From the IMG/VR virus record IMGVR_UViG_3300049216_000067: DNA of 64,000 nt; one strand, written 5' to 3'. This DNA comes from a virus. Below, piece after piece: positions 3,878 through 40,916 of the stretch (its first letter is position 1; the number at the start of each line of letters is the position of its first letter). The notes under the pieces were generated by a model. It was given only the letters and a program-made list of their open reading frames with translations. It searched no databases and had not been told where the DNA came from. Position numbers and translations under genes: made by a program.

Positions 3878-5181
3878 TAGCTTGATATTATTTGTTTAAT
3901 AGTTTGAGAGCCGTTTGTAGGTGCTGCTAACTGCGCAGAAACCGTGTCTGATAGAAGTTCTACGATTGTCGCCGCTGTGTCCAAAATAAATTTATGATGA
4001 ACACTAGAAACAAGATAACGGCCTGTTCTCATAGGATCATTAGCCGTAGTTGCGTCCTGAATTTCCATCTTTGGGACTACTACTCCGATTACGGAACCAG
4101 TCTTAAGAAGAATGTCACCAGGAACAACACCCACAATCTTGAATGTATTTAACATGCCCAATCTTGATGTGGTTTGCGGTAACCATTTCTTAAGGTTTGC
4201 TGGATTACTGGTTGTATCGGAATCAGTTGAAATGACAAACTTCAACATGTTTCCATCTGTTTGAAACACTGAATAACCAAACCTATTTGTAAAATCGTTG
4301 CACGGTAGAAAATTATTGAGAATAGCGTTGTTAGAAAGTTGTTTAGCATTAAAATTAACCGCAGTAAATTGTCTATTGACGATATCAAACGTGGCTAAAG
4401 TGGAAGAGAATGCTCCAGACTTCATAGTCTTTAGCATGTCAAAATCTTGCGTGACTTGAATTAGATTGAAAGTGTTACTGTTATAAACAGGATTTTGTCC
4501 TAATTTAATATTGAAACCATAAATCTGATAGGTTGGCTGCTGTAGTAATGTTTCATAAGAAACAAAGTTGAAACCGTCTCTATTTTCAAAAAAGAAATAA
4601 AGATTTTTGGCTGGACCATATGATCTAGGTGTAAGCCAAGATATTGCTTCAAGTGCGGACATGCGCGGAATTATGATGTCGAATACACCAGAAGTTTGTT
4701 CGATAATGTTTATCTTAGAAGGAGATACTCTAAGTTTGTTAAGCAATAGATCGCTGATCATTTGGTCTATTCTTAGACCTTTGTATGACTTACTGATCAT
4801 GCTTTGTGTTGAAAGAAATAACTCTTCAGAGCAAAAGTGTATGGTGTAATTTTGCAAACCATTAGAACCAAGAGATCTGTCGCTAATTTTGTATATGCGA
4901 AAAGTTTTGTTGATTGGTTTGTTTAAGCTAGGTTTATCTACATTTACTTGAATAAATTCATTGCCGTGCATTTTGAAAGAAGATATCAAATCGAGAGCAT
5001 CACCCATGACGACACTTCCAGTCATGACAGGACTCCAAATATCTTCATACAAATTTAGCTCAACTATAAGTCCTCTAATATCAACAATTTTACCGTCACT
5101 AGTAACGATGTTTAACGTGTTGAGTTTGTAATCAGATGAAGCAATTAAACCAATTGTATCTGATGAAGTATTTGATGACAT
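3877..5181 (-). CDS. Putative baseplate hub protein (gp27/late-control-D-like)
   Basis: 434 aa between gp53 and gp5; LNLYEDI, FFFENRDGFNF and GRYLVSSVHH motifs typical of this position in environmental T4-like phages. Confidence 0.6.
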   Translation of the reverse strand: MSSNTSSDTIGLIASSDYKLNTLNIVTSDGKIVDIRGLIVELNLYEDIWSPVMTGSVVMGDALDLISSFKMHGNEFIQVNVDKPSLNKPINKTFRIYKISDRSLGSNGLQNYTIHFCSEELFLSTQSMISKSYKGLRIDQMISDLLLNKLRVSPSKINIIEQTSGVFDIIIPRMSALEAISWLTPRSYGPAKNLYFFFENRDGFNFVSYETLLQQPTYQIYGFNIKLGQNPVYNSNTFNLIQVTQDFDMLKTMKSGAFSSTLATFDIVNRQFTAVNFNAKQLSNNAILNNFLPCNDFTNRFGYSVFQTDGNMLKFVISTDSDTTSNPANLKKWLPQTTSRLGMLNTFKIVGVVPGDILLKTGSVIGVVVPKMEIQDATTANDPMRTGRYLVSSVHHKFILDTAATIVELLSDTVSAQLAAPTNGSQTIKQIISS

Positions 5182-7728: not shown

Positions 7729-8250
7729 ATGCCATCATCAAGAAAACCTAATGTAAACGACTCTCGCGAATCCATTCGTTGGTTTGTTCGTATCCTTAAG
7801 AATTTGGATACAAAACAAATAAAACGTGAACAGCTGGGTGAATACGTTAATAGGCCACAACTTGGTAAGCTATGTTGTTATTACTACGATCCAAAAACTA
7901 AGGAAACACTTCCTTATTGGGATAGGTTTCCGTTGGTAATGCCTTTAGATTATCAAGATAACGGCTACATTCTTGGTTTGAACCTACATTATCTTCCACC
8001 AGAAGCCAGAATGGTTTTGTTCGATCAATTGTTTGCTGTTCGTGCTAGAAAAGATCTAACAGTAGAAAATCAAATCCTAATGTCTTACATGGTTTTAAAA
8101 AGAACATCACAATTTCCAGGTTGGAGAGATTGTATCAAGCGTTATATTCCATCTCATATTCAATCTCGTGTTTTAGAAATTGATCCATTGAGTTGGAAGC
8201 TTGCTGTCGCCTTACCCACTCAAATGTTTGTCAAAAAGCGTCCTTGGTAA
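7729..8250 (+). CDS. gp2: DNA end protector gp2
   Basis: YDPKTKETLPYWDRFPL...GLNLHYLPP...CIKRY. Confidence 0.92.
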   Translation: MPSSRKPNVNDSRESIRWFVRILKNLDTKQIKREQLGEYVNRPQLGKLCCYYYDPKTKETLPYWDRFPLVMPLDYQDNGYILGLNLHYLPPEARMVLFDQLFAVRARKDLTVENQILMSYMVLKRTSQFPGWRDCIKRYIPSHIQSRVLEIDPLSWKLAVALPTQMFVKKRPW

Positions 8251-8255
8251 ATTAA

Positions 8256-9119
8256 ATGTCATCAAAAAATTTATTCGGTCTTAATGTTAATTTAACCAAC
8301 CAAGGTTTGACTGGATCAGCTAGTCTTAAAATACCTGGCTTGCCTGGTATATCTTTGACTTATCCATTTTTAAGCGGTGTGACTAATCCACCGACGAATC
8401 CTAATTTTAGCATCAATAATTTCATTCAAAATCTAAACCAACACAATGAAACTGCTAGAACCGACAAGTTTGATGTTTTGATTATACCACCAGCAAGTGT
8501 AGCCAATTACGCCGGTCTATCTCCAGCTGCCATTGGTAGAGGATTAAATCTTCAATGTGAAATATCAGAACTTCCTGGTCGTGATATTCAAATGCAAGAA
8601 TATACGATTCACGCATTTGTAAGAAGGGTTCCTCACCAAAATCAATACGGTTCAGCTAATTTTACATTCATTTGTACTGGTGATTTCTGGGAAAAAAGTA
8701 TGTTTGATGCTTGGTTAGATTTGATGGTTCCTGCACAAACAGGTTTAGTAAATTACCCATTAGATGCTAATAACAACCGTAATTACGAGTGTGATATCTA
8801 TTGTAACCAATATGACATGACTGGAACTCAAATTTATCAAGCACAGCTTGTTGATGCTGTGCCGACTTCCGTGTCTGTTTTAAACCAATCATGGGATAAC
8901 GATGCTATCCATCGCTTAAATGTGACGTTTGCTTTCCGTAAGTGGGTTACTGTTGATACTGACTATCAAACAGTTACGACATTTGCTGGATCTAATCCAC
9001 AAGTCCTACCTTCATTAACTAGCGGAATTATCAATACGATTGCTAATTCTCCTATCGTTTCTCAAGATCTTAGAAAAGGAAATGCCGCTCTAAATAGCGC
9101 AATCAAAAAATTAATTTAA
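8256..9119 (+). CDS. gp54: Tail tube initiator gp54-like
   Basis: ARTDKFDV, CEISELPG, FDAW, AVPTSV, L.VTFAFRKW; syntenic position. Confidence 0.8.
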   Translation: MSSKNLFGLNVNLTNQGLTGSASLKIPGLPGISLTYPFLSGVTNPPTNPNFSINNFIQNLNQHNETARTDKFDVLIIPPASVANYAGLSPAAIGRGLNLQCEISELPGRDIQMQEYTIHAFVRRVPHQNQYGSANFTFICTGDFWEKSMFDAWLDLMVPAQTGLVNYPLDANNNRNYECDIYCNQYDMTGTQIYQAQLVDAVPTSVSVLNQSWDNDAIHRLNVTFAFRKWVTVDTDYQTVTTFAGSNPQVLPSLTSGIINTIANSPIVSQDLRKGNAALNSAIKKLI

Positions 9120-19060: not shown

Positions 19061-19083
19061 TAGCTTCTCCTATTTGAAAAACA

Positions 19084-19410
19084 GTGGTGGGTTATTCTGT
19101 TTCCAAGAAACCCACCGAAACTCAGAGCAGAATTACGCAGCTAGTGCGAAGTCCTGTTCAAACATGTCATCGTTAGATGCATTTATAGTTTTGCACTTTC
19201 ACGGTTGTTACCTACCGGATAGCCCTTGGTGTATTACTTGCGAAGTCGATACCAGTTCAGGCCCATCAGAAAGATACTGCGACGTTAGCTCTATCACTCG
19301 GCATTAAGCTAACTGCTGCCTGATAACAGTCAGTATCTTTTTGGTGGACCTGTGGGGAGTCGAACCCCAGTGTTCCGCACCTTTAGTCAAAGGTTTACTA
19401 TCATTCAAAC
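19084..19410 (-). ncRNA. ssrA: Circularly permuted (two-piece) tmRNA, tag ASNDDMFEQDFALAA*
   Basis: The 3' piece GGGGTTCGACTCCCCACAGGTCCACCA (CCA end 19342) precedes the 5' piece GGGCCTGAACTGGTATCGAC (G1 at 19264). G3-U70 pair. 77-nt intervening hairpin. Tag ORF at 19180-19133. Confidence 0.93.
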
Positions 19411-20139
19411 TTATTTATCTACACTAGTCTTAAACTTCAGTTTCTTGTATGAAAGCAGTCTATTTCTCTTGTCTGCTCGAACAGGAGATGTGGAAAATGC
19501 CGTAAGAACTGAGCCTATGTCTGGCTCGTAGAAAGGAAATACTTCCAAACCAAGTTCCTTGCAATCCTTAATAGCAATTGCCATCTCTTCATCGTTAGCA
19601 ACACCGATCACCGCAAAATATAATTCATCGAATGCCTTCTCGGCAGCGGCCCCGTTGAATCTACCATTACCTAGACGGTGTCCCATCTTTGCAGCAGCAT
19701 GTGCTGCTTGAACAAGCTGATACTCCGGACTGATATCCTGCCTAACAAAAGTGTAAACGTAATATCTATTCAAATACTCAGACGTTCTAGTGAACGAATA
19801 CTTTATTTGAAGTGCCTTTATAATAGCATGATATTTCTCTAATTCTTCATTATTAGAAAAAATATTATCAGGATCAGTTCCAAGAATGCTGAAGCCACAA
19901 CCAAACAAGGTCCAATAGATGGTATCAAATGGTTCACGACCATTATCCAGCTTGGACTTGCGACGGATTGGAGTAAAGGCACGCCTCAAATAGACATCAG
20001 CTAATGATTCTAATGAGATACGGTGCCAGGTAGGGTCATGGTCTTTAATAGCCCTAAGAATGGCATATTGAACCATGTGGTAGCGGTCGAGTTGCTTGGT
20101 ACGAGCAAGTGTTTTGTAGATTGTTCTAAAGTCTTTCAT
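19411..20139 (-). CDS. Peptidyl-tRNA hydrolase 2 (Pth2)-like C-terminal domain protein
   Basis: YVYTFVRQDIS..QLVQAAHAA...VIGV..EE...FYEPDIG..LTA. Confidence 0.72.
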   Translation of the reverse strand: MKDFRTIYKTLARTKQLDRYHMVQYAILRAIKDHDPTWHRISLESLADVYLRRAFTPIRRKSKLDNGREPFDTIYWTLFGCGFSILGTDPDNIFSNNEELEKYHAIIKALQIKYSFTRTSEYLNRYYVYTFVRQDISPEYQLVQAAHAAAKMGHRLGNGRFNGAAAEKAFDELYFAVIGVANDEEMAIAIKDCKELGLEVFPFYEPDIGSVLTAFSTSPVRADKRNRLLSYKKLKFKTSVDK

Positions 20140-20580: not shown

Positions 20581-20657
20581 TGGTTCCCGTGACAGGAATC
20601 GAACCCGCGACGCATCGTTTTAGAGACGACCGCTCTTAGCCACTGAGCTACACGGGA
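20581..20657 (-). tRNA. Amber suppressor tRNA (anticodon CUA)
   Basis: Full cloverleaf with UCCCGUG/CACGGGA-ACCA; anticodon arm GUCGU-CUCUAAA-ACGAU; GGUUCGAUUCC T arm. Confidence 0.9.
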
Positions 20658-23030: not shown

Positions 23031-23627
23031 TTAAATTGAATCTGGTTTACCGTTGTTCACCAGTAATTGACAAATATCATACGCACAGTCGGCAACAGGA
23101 TCGTGCTTATGTACAGTATCTTGATCCATCCACGGAACAGGAGCGTAACCATGAACGCAACCTTCTACCGTAAGATCTAGCGCGGTTCTAACATCGCGCC
23201 AATTGGAATAATGTGTGAATACTGGGTGATCAGCTGATCTACACAGACTCTCAAATACAACTTGATCCAAACCACCACGTTGCCAAAACATGACCTGAAA
23301 ATTCTTTTTCATGTCCATGCTACAACCACTGAGTGTGCGAATTTTTTCTAATCCTTCCAATAAAGGAAGATCATCAGGCTTCGGCGTAAGACTGACATCA
23401 CGTACTAATTTAGAACGCTTAGACCACCATTCTAATGTGGCTTTATCGACAGTTCTCTTATATTTGGTGATCTGTTCGCGTGCATCTAACTTGATGAAGT
23501 GAGCACGATTCAACAAATCTTTGTAAACTGGTTTTTCATCTAATGCGAATTCTATCATTGCAATTGACAAAACAGCAGCACTACTTTCAACATCCAAAGT
23601 TTCAATATCAAACATTATATGACGCAT
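23031..23627 (-). CDS. dexA: DEDD 3'-5' exonuclease (DexA-like)
   Basis: FDIETL, TLEWW, W.RG..D, WRDVRT, HDPVADC. Confidence 0.82.
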   Translation of the reverse strand: MRHIMFDIETLDVESSAAVLSIAMIEFALDEKPVYKDLLNRAHFIKLDAREQITKYKRTVDKATLEWWSKRSKLVRDVSLTPKPDDLPLLEGLEKIRTLSGCSMDMKKNFQVMFWQRGGLDQVVFESLCRSADHPVFTHYSNWRDVRTALDLTVEGCVHGYAPVPWMDQDTVHKHDPVADCAYDICQLLVNNGKPDSI

Positions 23628-28681: not shown

Positions 28682-29569
28682 TTAAGATGTCAAGAAATTT
28701 TGAATCACTGTAAGTCGATCCTGCTCATTCATGGATGGAAAATCAATATGACCCTCCAAATAATCCAGGAGCGGATAAAACTCTTCATCCACAGTCTTAC
28801 GAAATGAAGGAATGTCGGCCAGCAAATCGATCAGCCTGTCACCCTTCTTTCGAGCAAGAAACTTGTTGATCAAATAGTATGGTGACTTGATTTTAAGTGA
28901 CATGGACGGTCCATGCACCACAAAGCCTTCATGCTGACAATTCTTCACAAGGTCTAGAACAGTAGAGAACAAAATATTGTTGTATACGACCTGAGGGCGC
29001 AATACACCCATATGCTTAGCATGAGTATCCAATGAAGATTCGACAGCCATACCACCATCATAATGAAGGCGAGCACCTATCAAGTATGCTCCCGGCTCTT
29101 CAGGAATGATGTGTGGATCAGAAGGATCACAAATTTCAAATAACCATGTGATGTTATGCCCCAAATCACGAATCCAATTGGTAACATCAGGACGTAACCA
29201 TTTCTCTGCCAATCCAACAAAATCTGAGTCGAGTGATCCTGTCGTAGATACAATGACACCATGATCCTTGACGTAAGTTGCCGCTGCCATAAATCCGTTT
29301 ATCTTACGGACAGCTGTCACCCTCTGATCCAATGAAAAATCAGTTCCTCGTTCACCACGATTGTAGATCTTCTTGAAAGGTAAAATAACTGGCTTCCAAT
29401 CCTTATCGACAACCAATCCACGACACTCTTCCAATTCCGGTGTCCACAGGTTGTCATAAAAAACCTTTCGAGTGTACTTGACAACAAATAAACCTGGATA
29501 GCGAATAGACTCACGACAAGTCACCAGCTTTGGATTGTTTTCGACAAATGTCTTAATATTTTCAAACAT
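28682..29569 (-). CDS. T4 Rnl1-like RNA ligase
   Basis: ECRGLV, KINGF (motif I), STTGSLDS, FEI, EGFV, KIKSPYY. Confidence 0.88.
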   Translation of the reverse strand: MFENIKTFVENNPKLVTCRESIRYPGLFVVKYTRKVFYDNLWTPELEECRGLVVDKDWKPVILPFKKIYNRGERGTDFSLDQRVTAVRKINGFMAAATYVKDHGVIVSTTGSLDSDFVGLAEKWLRPDVTNWIRDLGHNITWLFEICDPSDPHIIPEEPGAYLIGARLHYDGGMAVESSLDTHAKHMGVLRPQVVYNNILFSTVLDLVKNCQHEGFVVHGPSMSLKIKSPYYLINKFLARKKGDRLIDLLADIPSFRKTVDEEFYPLLDYLEGHIDFPSMNEQDRLTVIQNFLTS

Positions 29570-31469: not shown

Positions 31470-31979
31470 TTAAGGATGGGTACTGTATTGAATTCCTTGC
31501 ATTTGAGGAAGACCTGAGTTAGTGATAAACTTTTGCTTGATCTTTTCTAAGCGATCAGCCGGAACACCGTGAATAGACCCGTAATCACCCTTACACTCAA
31601 TAATGTGTACTTGATACCCATGAGTCTGCGCCAATTCAATGTAACCGCGCATAGCTCTCCAGCGAGAGTAAACACCCGCTGTAATGACGATAGGCTCTTT
31701 CATAACCATACGAAGATATACACCGTCATAACATTGATCAATAGCACGAGATAGACGTTCCTCGGTCCATTCGTATTCACCTTTCTCGTTGTATAGAAAT
31801 TGATCAGTCTCGACATAGGAGACGTGTGATTCCTCAGCCATTTTAGCTGCTAAGGTGGACTTCCCAGATCCAGGGATACCACGAATGATGTAAAAATGTT
31901 TCACAGGTTTGCGCTTAATAAACGAAGTCAAAATGAAGAACATGGTGAATGCTAAAAGCATTGAAATAAGTAAACCCAT
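31470..31979 (-). CDS. P-loop kinase (AAA_33/polynucleotide-kinase-like)
   Basis: IIRGIPGSGKST, SIHGVP; possible N-terminal TM helix. Confidence 0.8.
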   Translation of the reverse strand: MGLLISMLLAFTMFFILTSFIKRKPVKHFYIIRGIPGSGKSTLAAKMAEESHVSYVETDQFLYNEKGEYEWTEERLSRAIDQCYDGVYLRMVMKEPIVITAGVYSRWRAMRGYIELAQTHGYQVHIIECKGDYGSIHGVPADRLEKIKQKFITNSGLPQMQGIQYSTHP

Positions 31980-40048: not shown

Positions 40049-40119
40049 GATCCTTGACAGGAATTGAACCTGCTTCTCCCGATTCAAATTCGGGCGACTT
40101 ACCGTTTGTCTTCGAGGAC
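40049..40119 (-). tRNA. Degenerate tRNA with UUG anticodon (Gln-like), no encoded CCA
   Basis: CCCGA-AUUUGAA-UCGGG, GGUUCAAUUCC, one acceptor mismatch. Confidence 0.55.
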
Positions 40120-40250
40120 AGATCTTTTTTACGTGTTAGTCTCACGATCCGGACTCGGACATTAGGATTCAATAATGGAACTGTTGGCACATACGATGAC
40201 GAGTCGATGTTTAGGTTGTCAGCCTTAGTCAACAGTTCCGCGTTAATTTT

Positions 40251-40323
40251 CTCCAGCACAAGGAATCGAACCTTGCCACAAATCGTTAACAGCGATCCCG
40301 CACACCTTGCGCGTCTACTGGAA
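40251..40323 (-). tRNA. tRNA-Asn(GUU), no encoded CCA
   Basis: Loop CUGUUAA, G73. Confidence 0.78.
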
Positions 40324-40328
40324 TAAAT

Positions 40329-40486
40329 CGAAAATAAAGTGCGGGTGTCCTGGGCCACTAGACGAAGGCTCGCCGGTCGCGTGCGTGAGCACTTGAATCT
40401 CGGTACGTTTTCGAGAGCCGGTATAGATGAACCTGTTGGATTCGAACCAACGTTCCCCGCGTTAGAGTTTCCCTGCTTTACATCGT
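40329..40486 (-). ncRNA. Circularly permuted tRNA-like element (YrlA-type topology or permuted CUA tRNA)
   Basis: The 3' half (40467-40427) lies upstream of the 5' half (40372-40341). The halves complement in both the acceptor and anticodon stems. Confidence 0.7.
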
Positions 40487-40916
40487 GTTTCCCTAATAGG
40501 TACTTAACAATGCTGGACACGTTTTAGTCCAACCTGATTTAGGTGGTGAGGGCGACCAAGGTCATTCAATGGAATCCAAAGAATGCTTGAGAAATTGATG
40601 CTGGCTTCACGAGTTTCCTCGACGGATTTCCAGCTTCCAAAGTAAAAAGGCCACGCTTTGGCAAGCGATGGCCTTGTAATCTTGTTCCAGCGGTTCCATG
40701 GGAAGGAGTGACCGCGTGCCTAGCGTGCAAGAACGTTGCACGAGTTGCGTAGTGGAAGCGGGGATACAGCTGAACCTCTTCGGTTCGAAGGCTTATCTGC
40801 CTGAGATACTTCTACTACCTCTAATGCTTACTATCTTAGATTATTTAATCTTTAATAGCAAGTCTCATATTTATCTTCTAATTTCGAAAAGACTAACTAT
40901 TAAGAAAATTTATTTT

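What the first reader, a model, noticed from the sequence alone, without database searches (positions are those of the whole stretch)
40329..40486. Circularly permuted tRNA-like gene whose rejoined loop would read CUA
Seen, in transcript order: CUCUAAC-GCGGG-GAAC-GUUGG UUCGAAU CCAAC-AGGUUCA-U (3' half), then a 54-nt structured linker closed by CCGG/CCGG, then CGAGCCU-UC-GUCU AGUGGCCCA GGAC-A-CCCGC (5' half). The halves give a complete cloverleaf broken at position 31/32, with loop CU-CUA-AC. The flanks also pair (GUAAAG/CUUUAU). Known: permuted tRNA genes are described from algae and an archaeon. Bacterial YrlA Y RNAs have the same T-arm, closed acceptor, D-arm order. Inference: this is either a YrlA-like tRNA mimic or a second, split amber suppressor matured by RNase P and sealed by the phage Rnl1-like ligase.
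Basis: partly seen in the sequence, partly recalled or inferred. Interest (0 to 1): 0.82.

Follow-up and report, generated by a model that had tools for sequence, protein, structure and literature searches.

The report
Back-to-front tRNA mimic in phage
The back-to-front tRNA is real and kept by selection in this phage lineage, but comparison with related copies shows it is most likely a non-decoding tRNA look-alike RNA of the bacterial Y-RNA (YrlA) style with no Ro60 partner gene in sight, not a split stop-codon-reading tRNA.

Summary
On the minus strand, 40467-40341 holds a tRNA 3' half, a 54-nt two-hairpin linker and the matching 5' half. ARAGORN calls the rejoined halves a tRNA with anticodon CUA.

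The element is under selection. A sister phage (about 93% identical) differs at 11 columns, and none breaks a helix; one change is a compensatory pair in the linker. A more distant, truncated copy has two compensatory T-stem changes.

Four related modules in three other phage contigs keep the same order: T arm, closed acceptor arm, D arm, open anticodon stem. None has the CUCUAAC loop. Part of the linker is conserved. The element encodes no CCA, unlike 35 of the 37 tRNAs here.

I read it as a Ro60-independent, YrlA-style tRNA mimic carried as a cassette in phage tRNA arrays. It is not a YrlA family member:
- The Rfam YrlA model gives no hit, yet it finds the control in mycobacteriophage Catera.
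- There is no GNCGAA motif.
- There is no TROVE gene in the window or in four related contigs.

The split amber suppressor is not excluded, but I put it at about 5%. No RNA data could be obtained. This scan has noted similar back-to-front tRNA mimics on other genomes.

The parts
40476..40481 (-). 5' strand of the flanking clamp helix (GUAAAG). It pairs with 40334-40339. A seventh pair, C40475-G, forms in the sister copy L093.
   Evidence: Conserved in L093 and L092.
40461..40475 (-). 15-nt single strand between the clamp and the anticodon-type stem. Its last 7 nt (40467-40461, CUCUAAC) look like an anticodon loop with CUA. RNAalifold pairs AGGG with CUCU as a small hairpin.
   Evidence: Positions 40475-40462 are identical in window, L093 and L092; the last base is C or A. 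Absent from the modules in L006, L011 and L013.
40456..40460 (-). Anticodon-stem 3' strand (GCGGG). Pairs with 40341-40345.
   Evidence: This stem covaries across the family.
40452..40455 (-). 4-nt variable region (GAAC). C48 can form the Levitt pair with G15.
   Evidence: 15:48 covaries as G:C or A:U across the family.
40435..40451 (-). T arm: 5-bp stem and canonical loop UUCGAAU.
   Evidence: Two compensatory pair changes in L092.
40427..40434 (-). Acceptor 3' strand (40434-40428) and discriminator U (40427). No CCA follows.
40373..40426 (-). 54-nt linker that closes the acceptor arm. It holds the CCGG/CCGG helix (40421-40418 with 40376-40373), hairpin 1 (40416-40412 with 40402-40398) and hairpin 2 (40392-40389 with 40384-40381).
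   Evidence: One compensatory C-G to U-A change in hairpin 1 against L093. The hairpin 2 region is sequence-conserved in L013.
40366..40372 (-). Acceptor 5' strand (6 of 7 pairs; 1-72 is C.A). A nick at 40373|40372 is the site expected for RNase P.
   Evidence: The RNase P site is an inference from M. smegmatis YrlA (PMC4201824).
40346..40365 (-). U8-C9, D arm (stem GUCU/GGAC, loop AGUGGCCCA) and A26. The arm resembles tRNA-Glu and tRNA-Gln.
40341..40345 (-). Anticodon-stem 5' strand (CCCGC).
40324..40340 (-). 3' flank: A, then CUUUAU (clamp 3' strand, 40339-40334), then a U-rich spacer up to tRNA-Asn. It has the same composition as ordinary inter-tRNA spacers of this phage.
40250..40323 (-). 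tRNA-Asn(GUU), the first tRNA of the array. Its 5' maturation by RNase P would set the element's 3' end.
   Evidence: In relative L012 the conserved leader runs straight into tRNA-Asn with no element.
40485..40680 (-). Conserved leader upstream of the element. It contains a terminator-like hairpin (about 40677-40640) and a direct repeat of AGGGAAAC (40494-40487 and 40474-40467).

Best explanation
The element is a gene for a non-decoding tRNA mimic.

**Transcription and release (inferred).** It is transcribed on the minus strand with the tRNA array. RNase P cutting at the 5' end of tRNA-Asn would free it on the 3' side.

**Fold (shown from sequence).** It can fold into a tRNA L-shape, because all elbow and core positions are kept.
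- The acceptor arm is closed by a conserved two-hairpin extension. It has no chargeable end unless RNase P nicks it at 40373|40372, as happens in M. smegmatis YrlA.
- The anticodon end is open. In place of a 7-nt loop it carries a 15-nt strand and a 6-7-bp clamp.

**Function (inferred).** With this shape it cannot decode. It would present a tRNA body to tRNA-binding factors, either as a decoy or sponge, or as a platform for the phage's tRNA processing and repair enzymes.

**Family.** It belongs to a small family of such modules that move as cassettes within the tRNA arrays of related T4-like phages. The family appears to work without Ro60.
For: **The structure is real.**
- ARAGORN accepts the rejoined halves.
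- RNAalifold recovers the permuted cloverleaf plus the linker helices.
- The strict descriptor found only this site in 1.36 Mb.

**It is under selection.**
- Sister copy L093 is 92-93% identical overall.
- It differs at 11 columns. Nine lie in unpaired columns and two form one compensatory pair. P is about 0.01 under random placement.
- The truncated copy L092 has two compensatory T-stem pairs.

**It has relatives.**
- Model R1 finds L006 at 34 bits, L013 at 28 bits and L011 at 25 bits.
- All have T arm, closed acceptor, D arm and open stem. The stems and the 15:48 pair covary.
- None has the CUCUAAC loop.
- The linker hairpin 2 region is conserved in L013.

**It behaves as a cassette.** L012 has the homologous leader but no element.

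**It is not matured like the tRNAs.** No CCA is encoded, against 35 of 37 tRNAs.

**No Ro60.** No TROVE gene in the window or in four related contigs, with a working control.

**The architecture matches YrlA.** R1 hits Catera YrlA. RNase P nicking and CCA addition of a 7-bp-acceptor YrlA is published (PMC4201824).
Against: - No transcript, end-mapping or binding data exist.
- The window covers only about a third of the roughly 175-kb genome. A Ro60-like or other partner gene could lie elsewhere or in the host.
- The 20 nt that include CUCUAA are identical in three lineages whose stems differ. This also fits a functional anticodon loop.
- The family is small: seven copies in five contigs. One copy is truncated, and L013 has a degenerate acceptor.
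- Homology of the L006 and L011 modules rests on modest scores, plus layout and flank similarity.
- The decoy or platform function is inference only.
Confidence: 0.62

Rival explanations
1. Split (circularly permuted) amber suppressor tRNA. RNase P and 3' trimming remove the linker. Unknown nucleases cut before C32 and after C31. The phage Rnl1-like ligase seals 31 to 32. CCA is added by the host.
For: - The rejoined sequence is a good cloverleaf with U33, CUA and A37.
- CUCUAA is identical in three lineages; position 38 varies.
- The body resembles the phage's own Gln tRNAs: same D stem, same U73, and a loop one base from CUCUGAA.
- The window encodes an Rnl1-like ligase and a P-loop kinase.
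Against: - The loop is missing from all four related modules outside this lineage.
- The linker is conserved in structure and partly in sequence, although this model discards it.
- No CCA, unlike 35 of 37 tRNAs.
- 1-72 is mismatched.
- There is no bulge-helix-bulge or ribozyme at the 31/32 ends.
- CUCU can pair with AGGG in the flank.
- A canonical CUA tRNA already exists at 20581-20657.
- TAG still ends ordinary genes.
Confidence: 0.05
2. A true Y RNA (divergent YrlA) that binds a Ro60/Rsr protein encoded elsewhere in the phage genome or by the host.
For: - Same domain order as YrlA.
- R1 cross-hits Catera YrlA.
- Large tRNA-rich phages with tmRNA and GGQ proteins, such as Catera, do carry Ro60 plus YrlA.
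Against: - No RF02553 hit, while the Catera control scores 36 bits.
- No GNCGAAN0-1G or GGUCCGA motif, and no long terminal stem.
- No TROVE gene in the window or in G002-G005.
- YrlA normally lies within 4 kb of Ro60 (PMC4201824).
Confidence: 0.1
3. A cis-acting part of the array precursor: a tRNA-shaped entry or processing site, or a 5' stabiliser for the polycistronic tRNA transcript. It would not be a free RNA.
For: - It sits between a conserved leader with a terminator-like hairpin and the first tRNA.
- The 7-bp acceptor plus T arm is a plausible RNase P site.
Against: - Related modules lie inside arrays, not at their head (L011 after tRNA-Ser, L013 after tRNA-Cys, L006 between His and Ala).
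- L012 manages with the same leader and no module.
Confidence: 0.12
4. A functionless relic: a captured or decayed piece spanning two tandem tRNA genes, from the anticodon loop of copy 1 to the anticodon stem of copy 2.
For: - Tandem bacterial tRNA-Glu genes give exactly this pattern.
- The element is GC-richer than the phage's tRNAs and unlike any of them (at most 50 of 73 identical positions). This fits a foreign origin.
Against: - Substitutions avoid all helices, and compensatory changes occur.
- All tertiary-contact positions are intact.
- The flanks show no trace of the missing halves.
- No donor was found.
- This may explain the origin, not the present state.
Confidence: 0.08

Closest known systems
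YrlA bacterial and phage Y RNAs (Rfam RF02553), especially M. smegmatis YrlA and the YrlA of mycobacteriophage Catera (Chen et al. 2014, PMC4201824)
   Same: - The domain order is T arm, acceptor-like stem closed at the top, D arm, with the RNA ends leaving through the anticodon-stem position.
- tRNA tertiary positions are kept, and the 15:48 pair covaries (the paper says the same).
- A 7-bp acceptor makes RNase P nicking and CCA addition possible, as shown for M. smegmatis YrlA.
- R1 hits Catera YrlA at 19.4 bits.
   Different: - No Ro60/TROVE gene nearby.
- No GNCGAAN0-1G motif and no long Ro-binding terminal stem.
- The D and T arm sequences are not the near-invariant YrlA ones.
- No RF02553 hit.
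- It lies inside a T4-like phage tRNA array.
- It carries a 54-nt two-hairpin acceptor extension.
Circularly permuted tRNA genes of Cyanidioschyzon merolae, some green algae and Thermofilum pendens
   Same: - The 3' half precedes the 5' half on one transcript with a short linker.
- The rejoined halves form a full cloverleaf.
   Different: - Those genes use a bulge-helix-bulge motif, a splicing endonuclease and a circular intermediate. No such motif is seen here, and I know of no bacterial or phage tRNA splicing endonuclease.
- Related modules lack the loop altogether.
Permuted two-piece tmRNA (Rfam RF04321 and RF01850). This phage's own copy is at 19075-19454.
   Same: Acceptor 3' piece, intervening hairpin, acceptor 5' piece on one precursor.
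   Different: - The tmRNA encodes CCA, has a tag reading frame and lacks a canonical D arm and anticodon stem.
- The element has no CCA and no frame, and keeps a full D arm and a 5-bp anticodon-type stem.
Double tRNA-mimic RNAs noted earlier in this scan beside DUF7873 proteins (AI notes e1-2703945 and others; unpublished)
   Same: - Back-to-front tRNA-like modules, also reported inside phage tRNA clusters.
- L006 carries two such modules in tandem.
   Different: - The window has a single module.
- No DUF7873 match appeared among the window ORFs of 190 aa or more.
- The link to that family was not tested directly.

Membership tests
YrlA (RF02553) | Match to the Rfam covariance model | tested here: not met
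   - No hit at E<=10 on 40200-40650.
- No hit on L093, L011 or L006 modules at E<=1. The best weak alignment is 15.8 bits on L006 module A, against a cut-off of 69.
- Positive control: Catera YrlA scores 36.1 bits, E 1.8e-5.
YrlA (RF02553) | Encoded within about 4 kb of a Ro60/TROVE gene on the same strand | tested here: not met
   - All window ORFs of 190 aa or more were scanned with Pfam: no TROVE.
- PF05731 is absent from G002-G005, and the control rang in Deinococcus.
- The rest of the phage genome is not held.
YrlA (RF02553) | GNCGAAN0-1G (Ro60-contact) motif near the 5' end | tested here: not met
   A regex over 40300-40700 on the minus strand found neither GNCGAAN0-1G nor GGUCCGA.
YrlA (RF02553) | tRNA-like domain in the order T arm, closed acceptor-like stem-loop, D arm | tested here: met
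   R1 aligns to the Catera YrlA domain.
Circularly permuted tRNA gene | 3' half upstream of 5' half; the rejoined sequence is a canonical cloverleaf | tested here: met
   ARAGORN calls tRNA(CUA) on the rejoined halves.
Circularly permuted tRNA gene | Processing motif at the leader/trailer junction (bulge-helix-bulge or equivalent) that defines the ends to be ligated | tested here: not met
   The junction is a 6-7-bp helix with a 15-nt/1-nt asymmetric loop. No ribozyme or other Rfam motif is present.
Circularly permuted tRNA gene | The anticodon loop is conserved as part of the gene in homologues | tested here: inconclusive
   Kept in window, L093 and L092. Absent from the homologous modules in L006 (two), L011 and L013.
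Circularly permuted tRNA gene | Ligated junction, circular intermediate, mature CCA-ended tRNA | not testable with these tools
No CCA is encoded.
Two-piece tmRNA | Encoded CCA, alanine-type acceptor, tag reading frame | tested here: not met
   No tmRNA model hit on the element. No CCA. The phage's real tmRNA is at 19075-19454.

The most novel reading that the evidence does not exclude
The element is a working, circularly permuted amber-suppressor tRNA of Gln or Glu type. RNase P and 3' trimming would remove the linker. The 31/32 ends would be cut and sealed by the phage's own Rnl1-like ligase and kinase. If so, it would be the first permuted tRNA gene I know of from a bacterial virus.

A milder version: RNase P nicks it and CCA is added. 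The result is a two-piece, chargeable tRNA body, as in M. smegmatis YrlA but without Ro60.
Probability: 0.06. Interest if true: 0.9.

Novelty: new variant of a known kind. Interest (0 to 1): 0.48.

Why it matters
tRNA mimics of the YrlA type are known only as partners of Ro60. Here the same architecture is kept by selection in T4-like phage tRNA arrays with no Ro60 gene found. This suggests such mimics have a wider use, for example as decoys against host tRNA-cleaving defences or as platforms for phage tRNA repair.

There is also a practical lesson for annotation. A back-to-front tRNA seen by eye can be any of three things: a closed mimic module, a pair of tandem tRNA genes, or a true permuted gene. 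Only comparison with relatives or RNA data can tell them apart.

Tried and rejected
**Searches that found no homologue**
- blastn of 40200-40700 against cultured phages: no match.
- IMG/VR pattern scans: only ordinary tRNA pairs or canonical suppressors; nothing; only L013's own contig.
- A strict 29-base metagenome pattern found nothing and was too strict.
- The DNA polymerase query found one near-identical fragment that does not reach the site.
- The upstream 166-aa protein has a single cluster.
- R1 over 50 more IMG/VR records gave only a tRNA-Lys/tRNA-Glu dimer as a false hit.
- The bacterial genome scan returned tandem tRNA-Glu genes. No donor resembles the element beyond the D arm.

**Comparisons that were negative**
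- T4 stable RNAs C and D are not similar.
- The single-sequence fold z-score is uninformative at -0.39.

- The window's own assembly is not held, so the rest of the genome could not be searched.
- 'DUF7873' was not accepted as a family name, so that link stays untested.

**Idea rejected**
- A sigma-70 or T4 late-type promoter that would place the transcript start at C32. I saw no convincing promoter by eye, and the scan found none.

Full report
**Setting**

The window comes from an uncultured, distant T4-like phage. Its DNA polymerase is about 42% identical to those of cyanomyoviruses. It has T4-type baseplate, gp32, UvsX and gp59 genes.

On the minus strand it carries an array of about 37 tRNA genes between 32.3 and 40.3 kb. 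It also has a permuted two-piece tmRNA and a canonical CUA suppressor tRNA at 20581-20657. The finding lies directly upstream of the first tRNA of the array, tRNA-Asn at 40250-40323.

**Observation**

- a 7-nt stretch CUCUAAC
- the 3' strand of a 5-bp stem
- a 4-nt variable region
- a canonical T arm
- a 7-nt acceptor 3' strand and a discriminator U
- a 54-nt linker closed by CCGG/CCGG
- the acceptor 5' strand, U8-C9, a canonical D arm, A26
- the 5' strand of the 5-bp stem

Three lines show this is not chance. ARAGORN calls the rejoined halves a tRNA with anticodon CUA. RNAalifold on the window plus its sister copy predicts the same permuted cloverleaf, the linker helices and the flanking helix without guidance. 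A strict descriptor of this architecture found only this site in 1.36 Mb of window plus fetched phage loci.

Pair 1-72 is a C.A mismatch. No CCA follows the discriminator, whereas 35 of the 37 tRNAs in the window encode CCA.

**Relatives and selection**

Direct pattern scans for the element in IMG/VR and in JGI metagenomes found nothing. A 20-mer from the conserved leader upstream then retrieved two metagenome contigs that carry the element.

L093 is a sister phage, 92-93% identical over 4 kb.
- Its copy differs at 11 alignment columns.
- Nine of these are unpaired.
- The other two are the two sides of one pair in linker hairpin 1, changed from C-G to U-A.
- Under random placement, no broken pair is expected only about 1% of the time.

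L092 is more distant and is cut off inside the T arm.
- Its T stem carries two compensatory pair changes.
- Its stem 3' strand differs from the window's.
- The 20 nt upstream of the stem, including CUCUAA, are identical.

The element is therefore a structured RNA under purifying selection, and that selection includes the linker.

**A small family, and what it lacks**

I built a covariance model (R1) from the window and L093 with this structure. It found homologous modules in three other phage contigs:

| Locus | Position | Score | Context |
|---|---|---|---|
| L006 | 8246-8376 | 34 bits | between tRNA-His and tRNA-Ala; by eye, and by a relaxed descriptor, there are two tandem modules here |
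| L013 | 4633-4766 | 28 bits | directly after tRNA-Cys |
| L011 | 503-572 | 25 bits | after tRNA-Ser |

These scores come; the sequences were read. L011 comes from the same sample series as L093. Its gene order continues where L093 ends, so it is probably the same sister phage. Its T arm is identical to the window's.

All of these modules share one layout:
- stem 3' strand, 4-nt variable region, T arm
- an acceptor-like arm that is closed at the top, by 7-8-nt loops in L006 A and L011 and by a 43-nt insert in L006 B
- D arm, then stem 5' strand
- covarying anticodon-type, T and D stems
- a 15:48 pair that switches between G:C and A:U

None of them has an anticodon-like loop. The stem begins 5-10 nt after the preceding tRNA's CCA, or directly after a short linker.

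The second linker hairpin and the bases after it are conserved in sequence between the window and L013. That is not expected of a spacer that is thrown away.

Relative L012 (98% complete genome, GGQ protein 74% identical) has the same leader but runs straight into tRNA-Asn with no element. R1 finds no module anywhere in that genome. R1 over 50 further related IMG/VR records gave only a dimeric-tRNA false hit. The module is therefore an accessory cassette of a narrow phage group.

**Is it YrlA?**

The architecture is that of the YrlA tRNA-like domain described by Chen et al. 2014 (PMC4201824). My model R1 hits the YrlA of mycobacteriophage Catera at 19.4 bits.

The defining features of the family are not met:
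- Rfam RF02553 gives no hit on the element at E<=10, nor on the related modules.
- As a positive control, the same tool finds Catera YrlA at 36 bits, just upstream of its Ro60-like gene.
- There is no GNCGAAN0-1G or GGUCCGA motif in 40300-40700.
- There is no long terminal stem like Catera's.
- Pfam scans of every window ORF of 190 aa or more found no TROVE domain.
- PF05731 is absent from four related contigs, with a working control.

The window is only about a third of the genome, and the assembly is not held. A distant partner gene cannot be excluded.

**Is it a split suppressor?**

Points in favour:
- The loop has U33, CUA and A37, and it is conserved in three lineages.
- The body shares its D stem and U73 with the phage's Gln tRNAs.
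- The phage encodes an Rnl1-like ligase and a P-loop kinase.

Points against:
- The loop is not part of the module in any relative outside this lineage.
- The linker is conserved.
- No CCA is encoded.
- 1-72 is unpaired.
- Nothing marks the two cuts that would be needed. The junction is a short helix with a 15/1 asymmetric loop, and no ribozyme or other motif is present.
- RNAalifold pairs CUCU with the AGGG just upstream, which is another reason the stretch could be conserved.
- The phage uses the standard code. TAG ends 4 of 51 long frames, and a normal CUA tRNA already exists.

I put this reading at about 5%.

**Origin**

The element is GC-richer than the phage's tRNAs and is unlike any of them (at most 50 of 73 identical positions). 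Its D arm and 4-nt variable region are of the tRNA-Glu/Gln type.

A scan of bacterial genomes with a T-loop-to-D-arm pattern returned many tandem tRNA-Glu gene pairs. Read from one anticodon loop to the next anticodon stem, these give the same back-to-front pattern. Capture of such a piece is a plausible origin. No donor was found, and the present copies are clearly constrained.

**Most likely mechanism**

Shown:
- a conserved, L-shape-competent RNA with a closed acceptor arm and an open anticodon end
- an accessory cassette in tRNA arrays
- no Ro60 gene found

Inferred:
- It is released by the tRNA-processing enzymes. RNase P at the tRNA-Asn 5' end would set its 3' side.
- It may be nicked by RNase P at 40373|40372, like the 7-bp-acceptor YrlA of M. 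smegmatis.
- It acts by offering a tRNA body to tRNA-binding factors, as a decoy or as a platform.

**Earlier notes of this scan**

Other windows have yielded back-to-front tRNA mimics, among them double modules beside DUF7873 proteins and a permuted tRNA-Asn in another phage. I used these as leads only. The L006 double module fits that description. I could not test the DUF7873 link.

Noticed in passing
window 40250-40323 (minus): tRNA-Asn(GUU) has no encoded CCA in the window: its 3' end runs into AAAA. The orthologue in sister contig L093 ends in GCCA and has compensatory T-stem changes.
   Followed up: partly
window 40049-40119 (minus): A tRNA called by Rfam (50.7 bits) but missed by ARAGORN. 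It also lacks an encoded CCA. So the three elements at the head of the array (this one, tRNA-Asn and the mimic) all lack CCA.
   Followed up: no
L011:503-572 (+): A second, short-loop tRNA-mimic module in the probable sister phage, between tRNA-Ser(AGA) and tRNA-Leu(UAG). Its T arm is identical to the window element's. The window has only 6 nt at the matching place.
   Followed up: partly
L006:8241-8529 (minus): Two tandem back-to-front tRNA-like modules between tRNA-His and tRNA-Ala in an unrelated phage contig. One has an acceptor hairpin with an 8-nt loop, the other a 43-nt insert. This resembles the 'double tRNA mimic' of earlier scan notes.
   Followed up: partly
L013:4633-4766 (+): A module after tRNA-Cys whose acceptor stem is degenerate. 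Its two linker hairpins and a stretch of about 20 nt match the window's linker.
   Followed up: partly
window 40485-40680 (minus): The leader is conserved in L093 (identical), L092 and partly L012. It has a terminator-like hairpin at about 40677-40640 and a direct repeat of AGGGAAAC at 40494-40487 and 40474-40467. I could not place a convincing promoter for the array.
   Followed up: partly
window 23031-23627, 28682-29569, 31470-31979 (minus): An Rv2179c-like 3'-5' exoribonuclease, an Rnl1-type RNA ligase (295 aa, shorter than T4 Rnl1) and an AAA_33 P-loop kinase. Together these are possible RNA end-healing and sealing functions.
   Followed up: no
L230:31983-32060 (Mycobacterium phage Catera): The YrlA upstream of the Ro60-like gp223 scores only 36 bits against RF02553, below the 69-bit gathering score. 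Default Rfam annotation would therefore miss phage YrlAs.
   Followed up: partly
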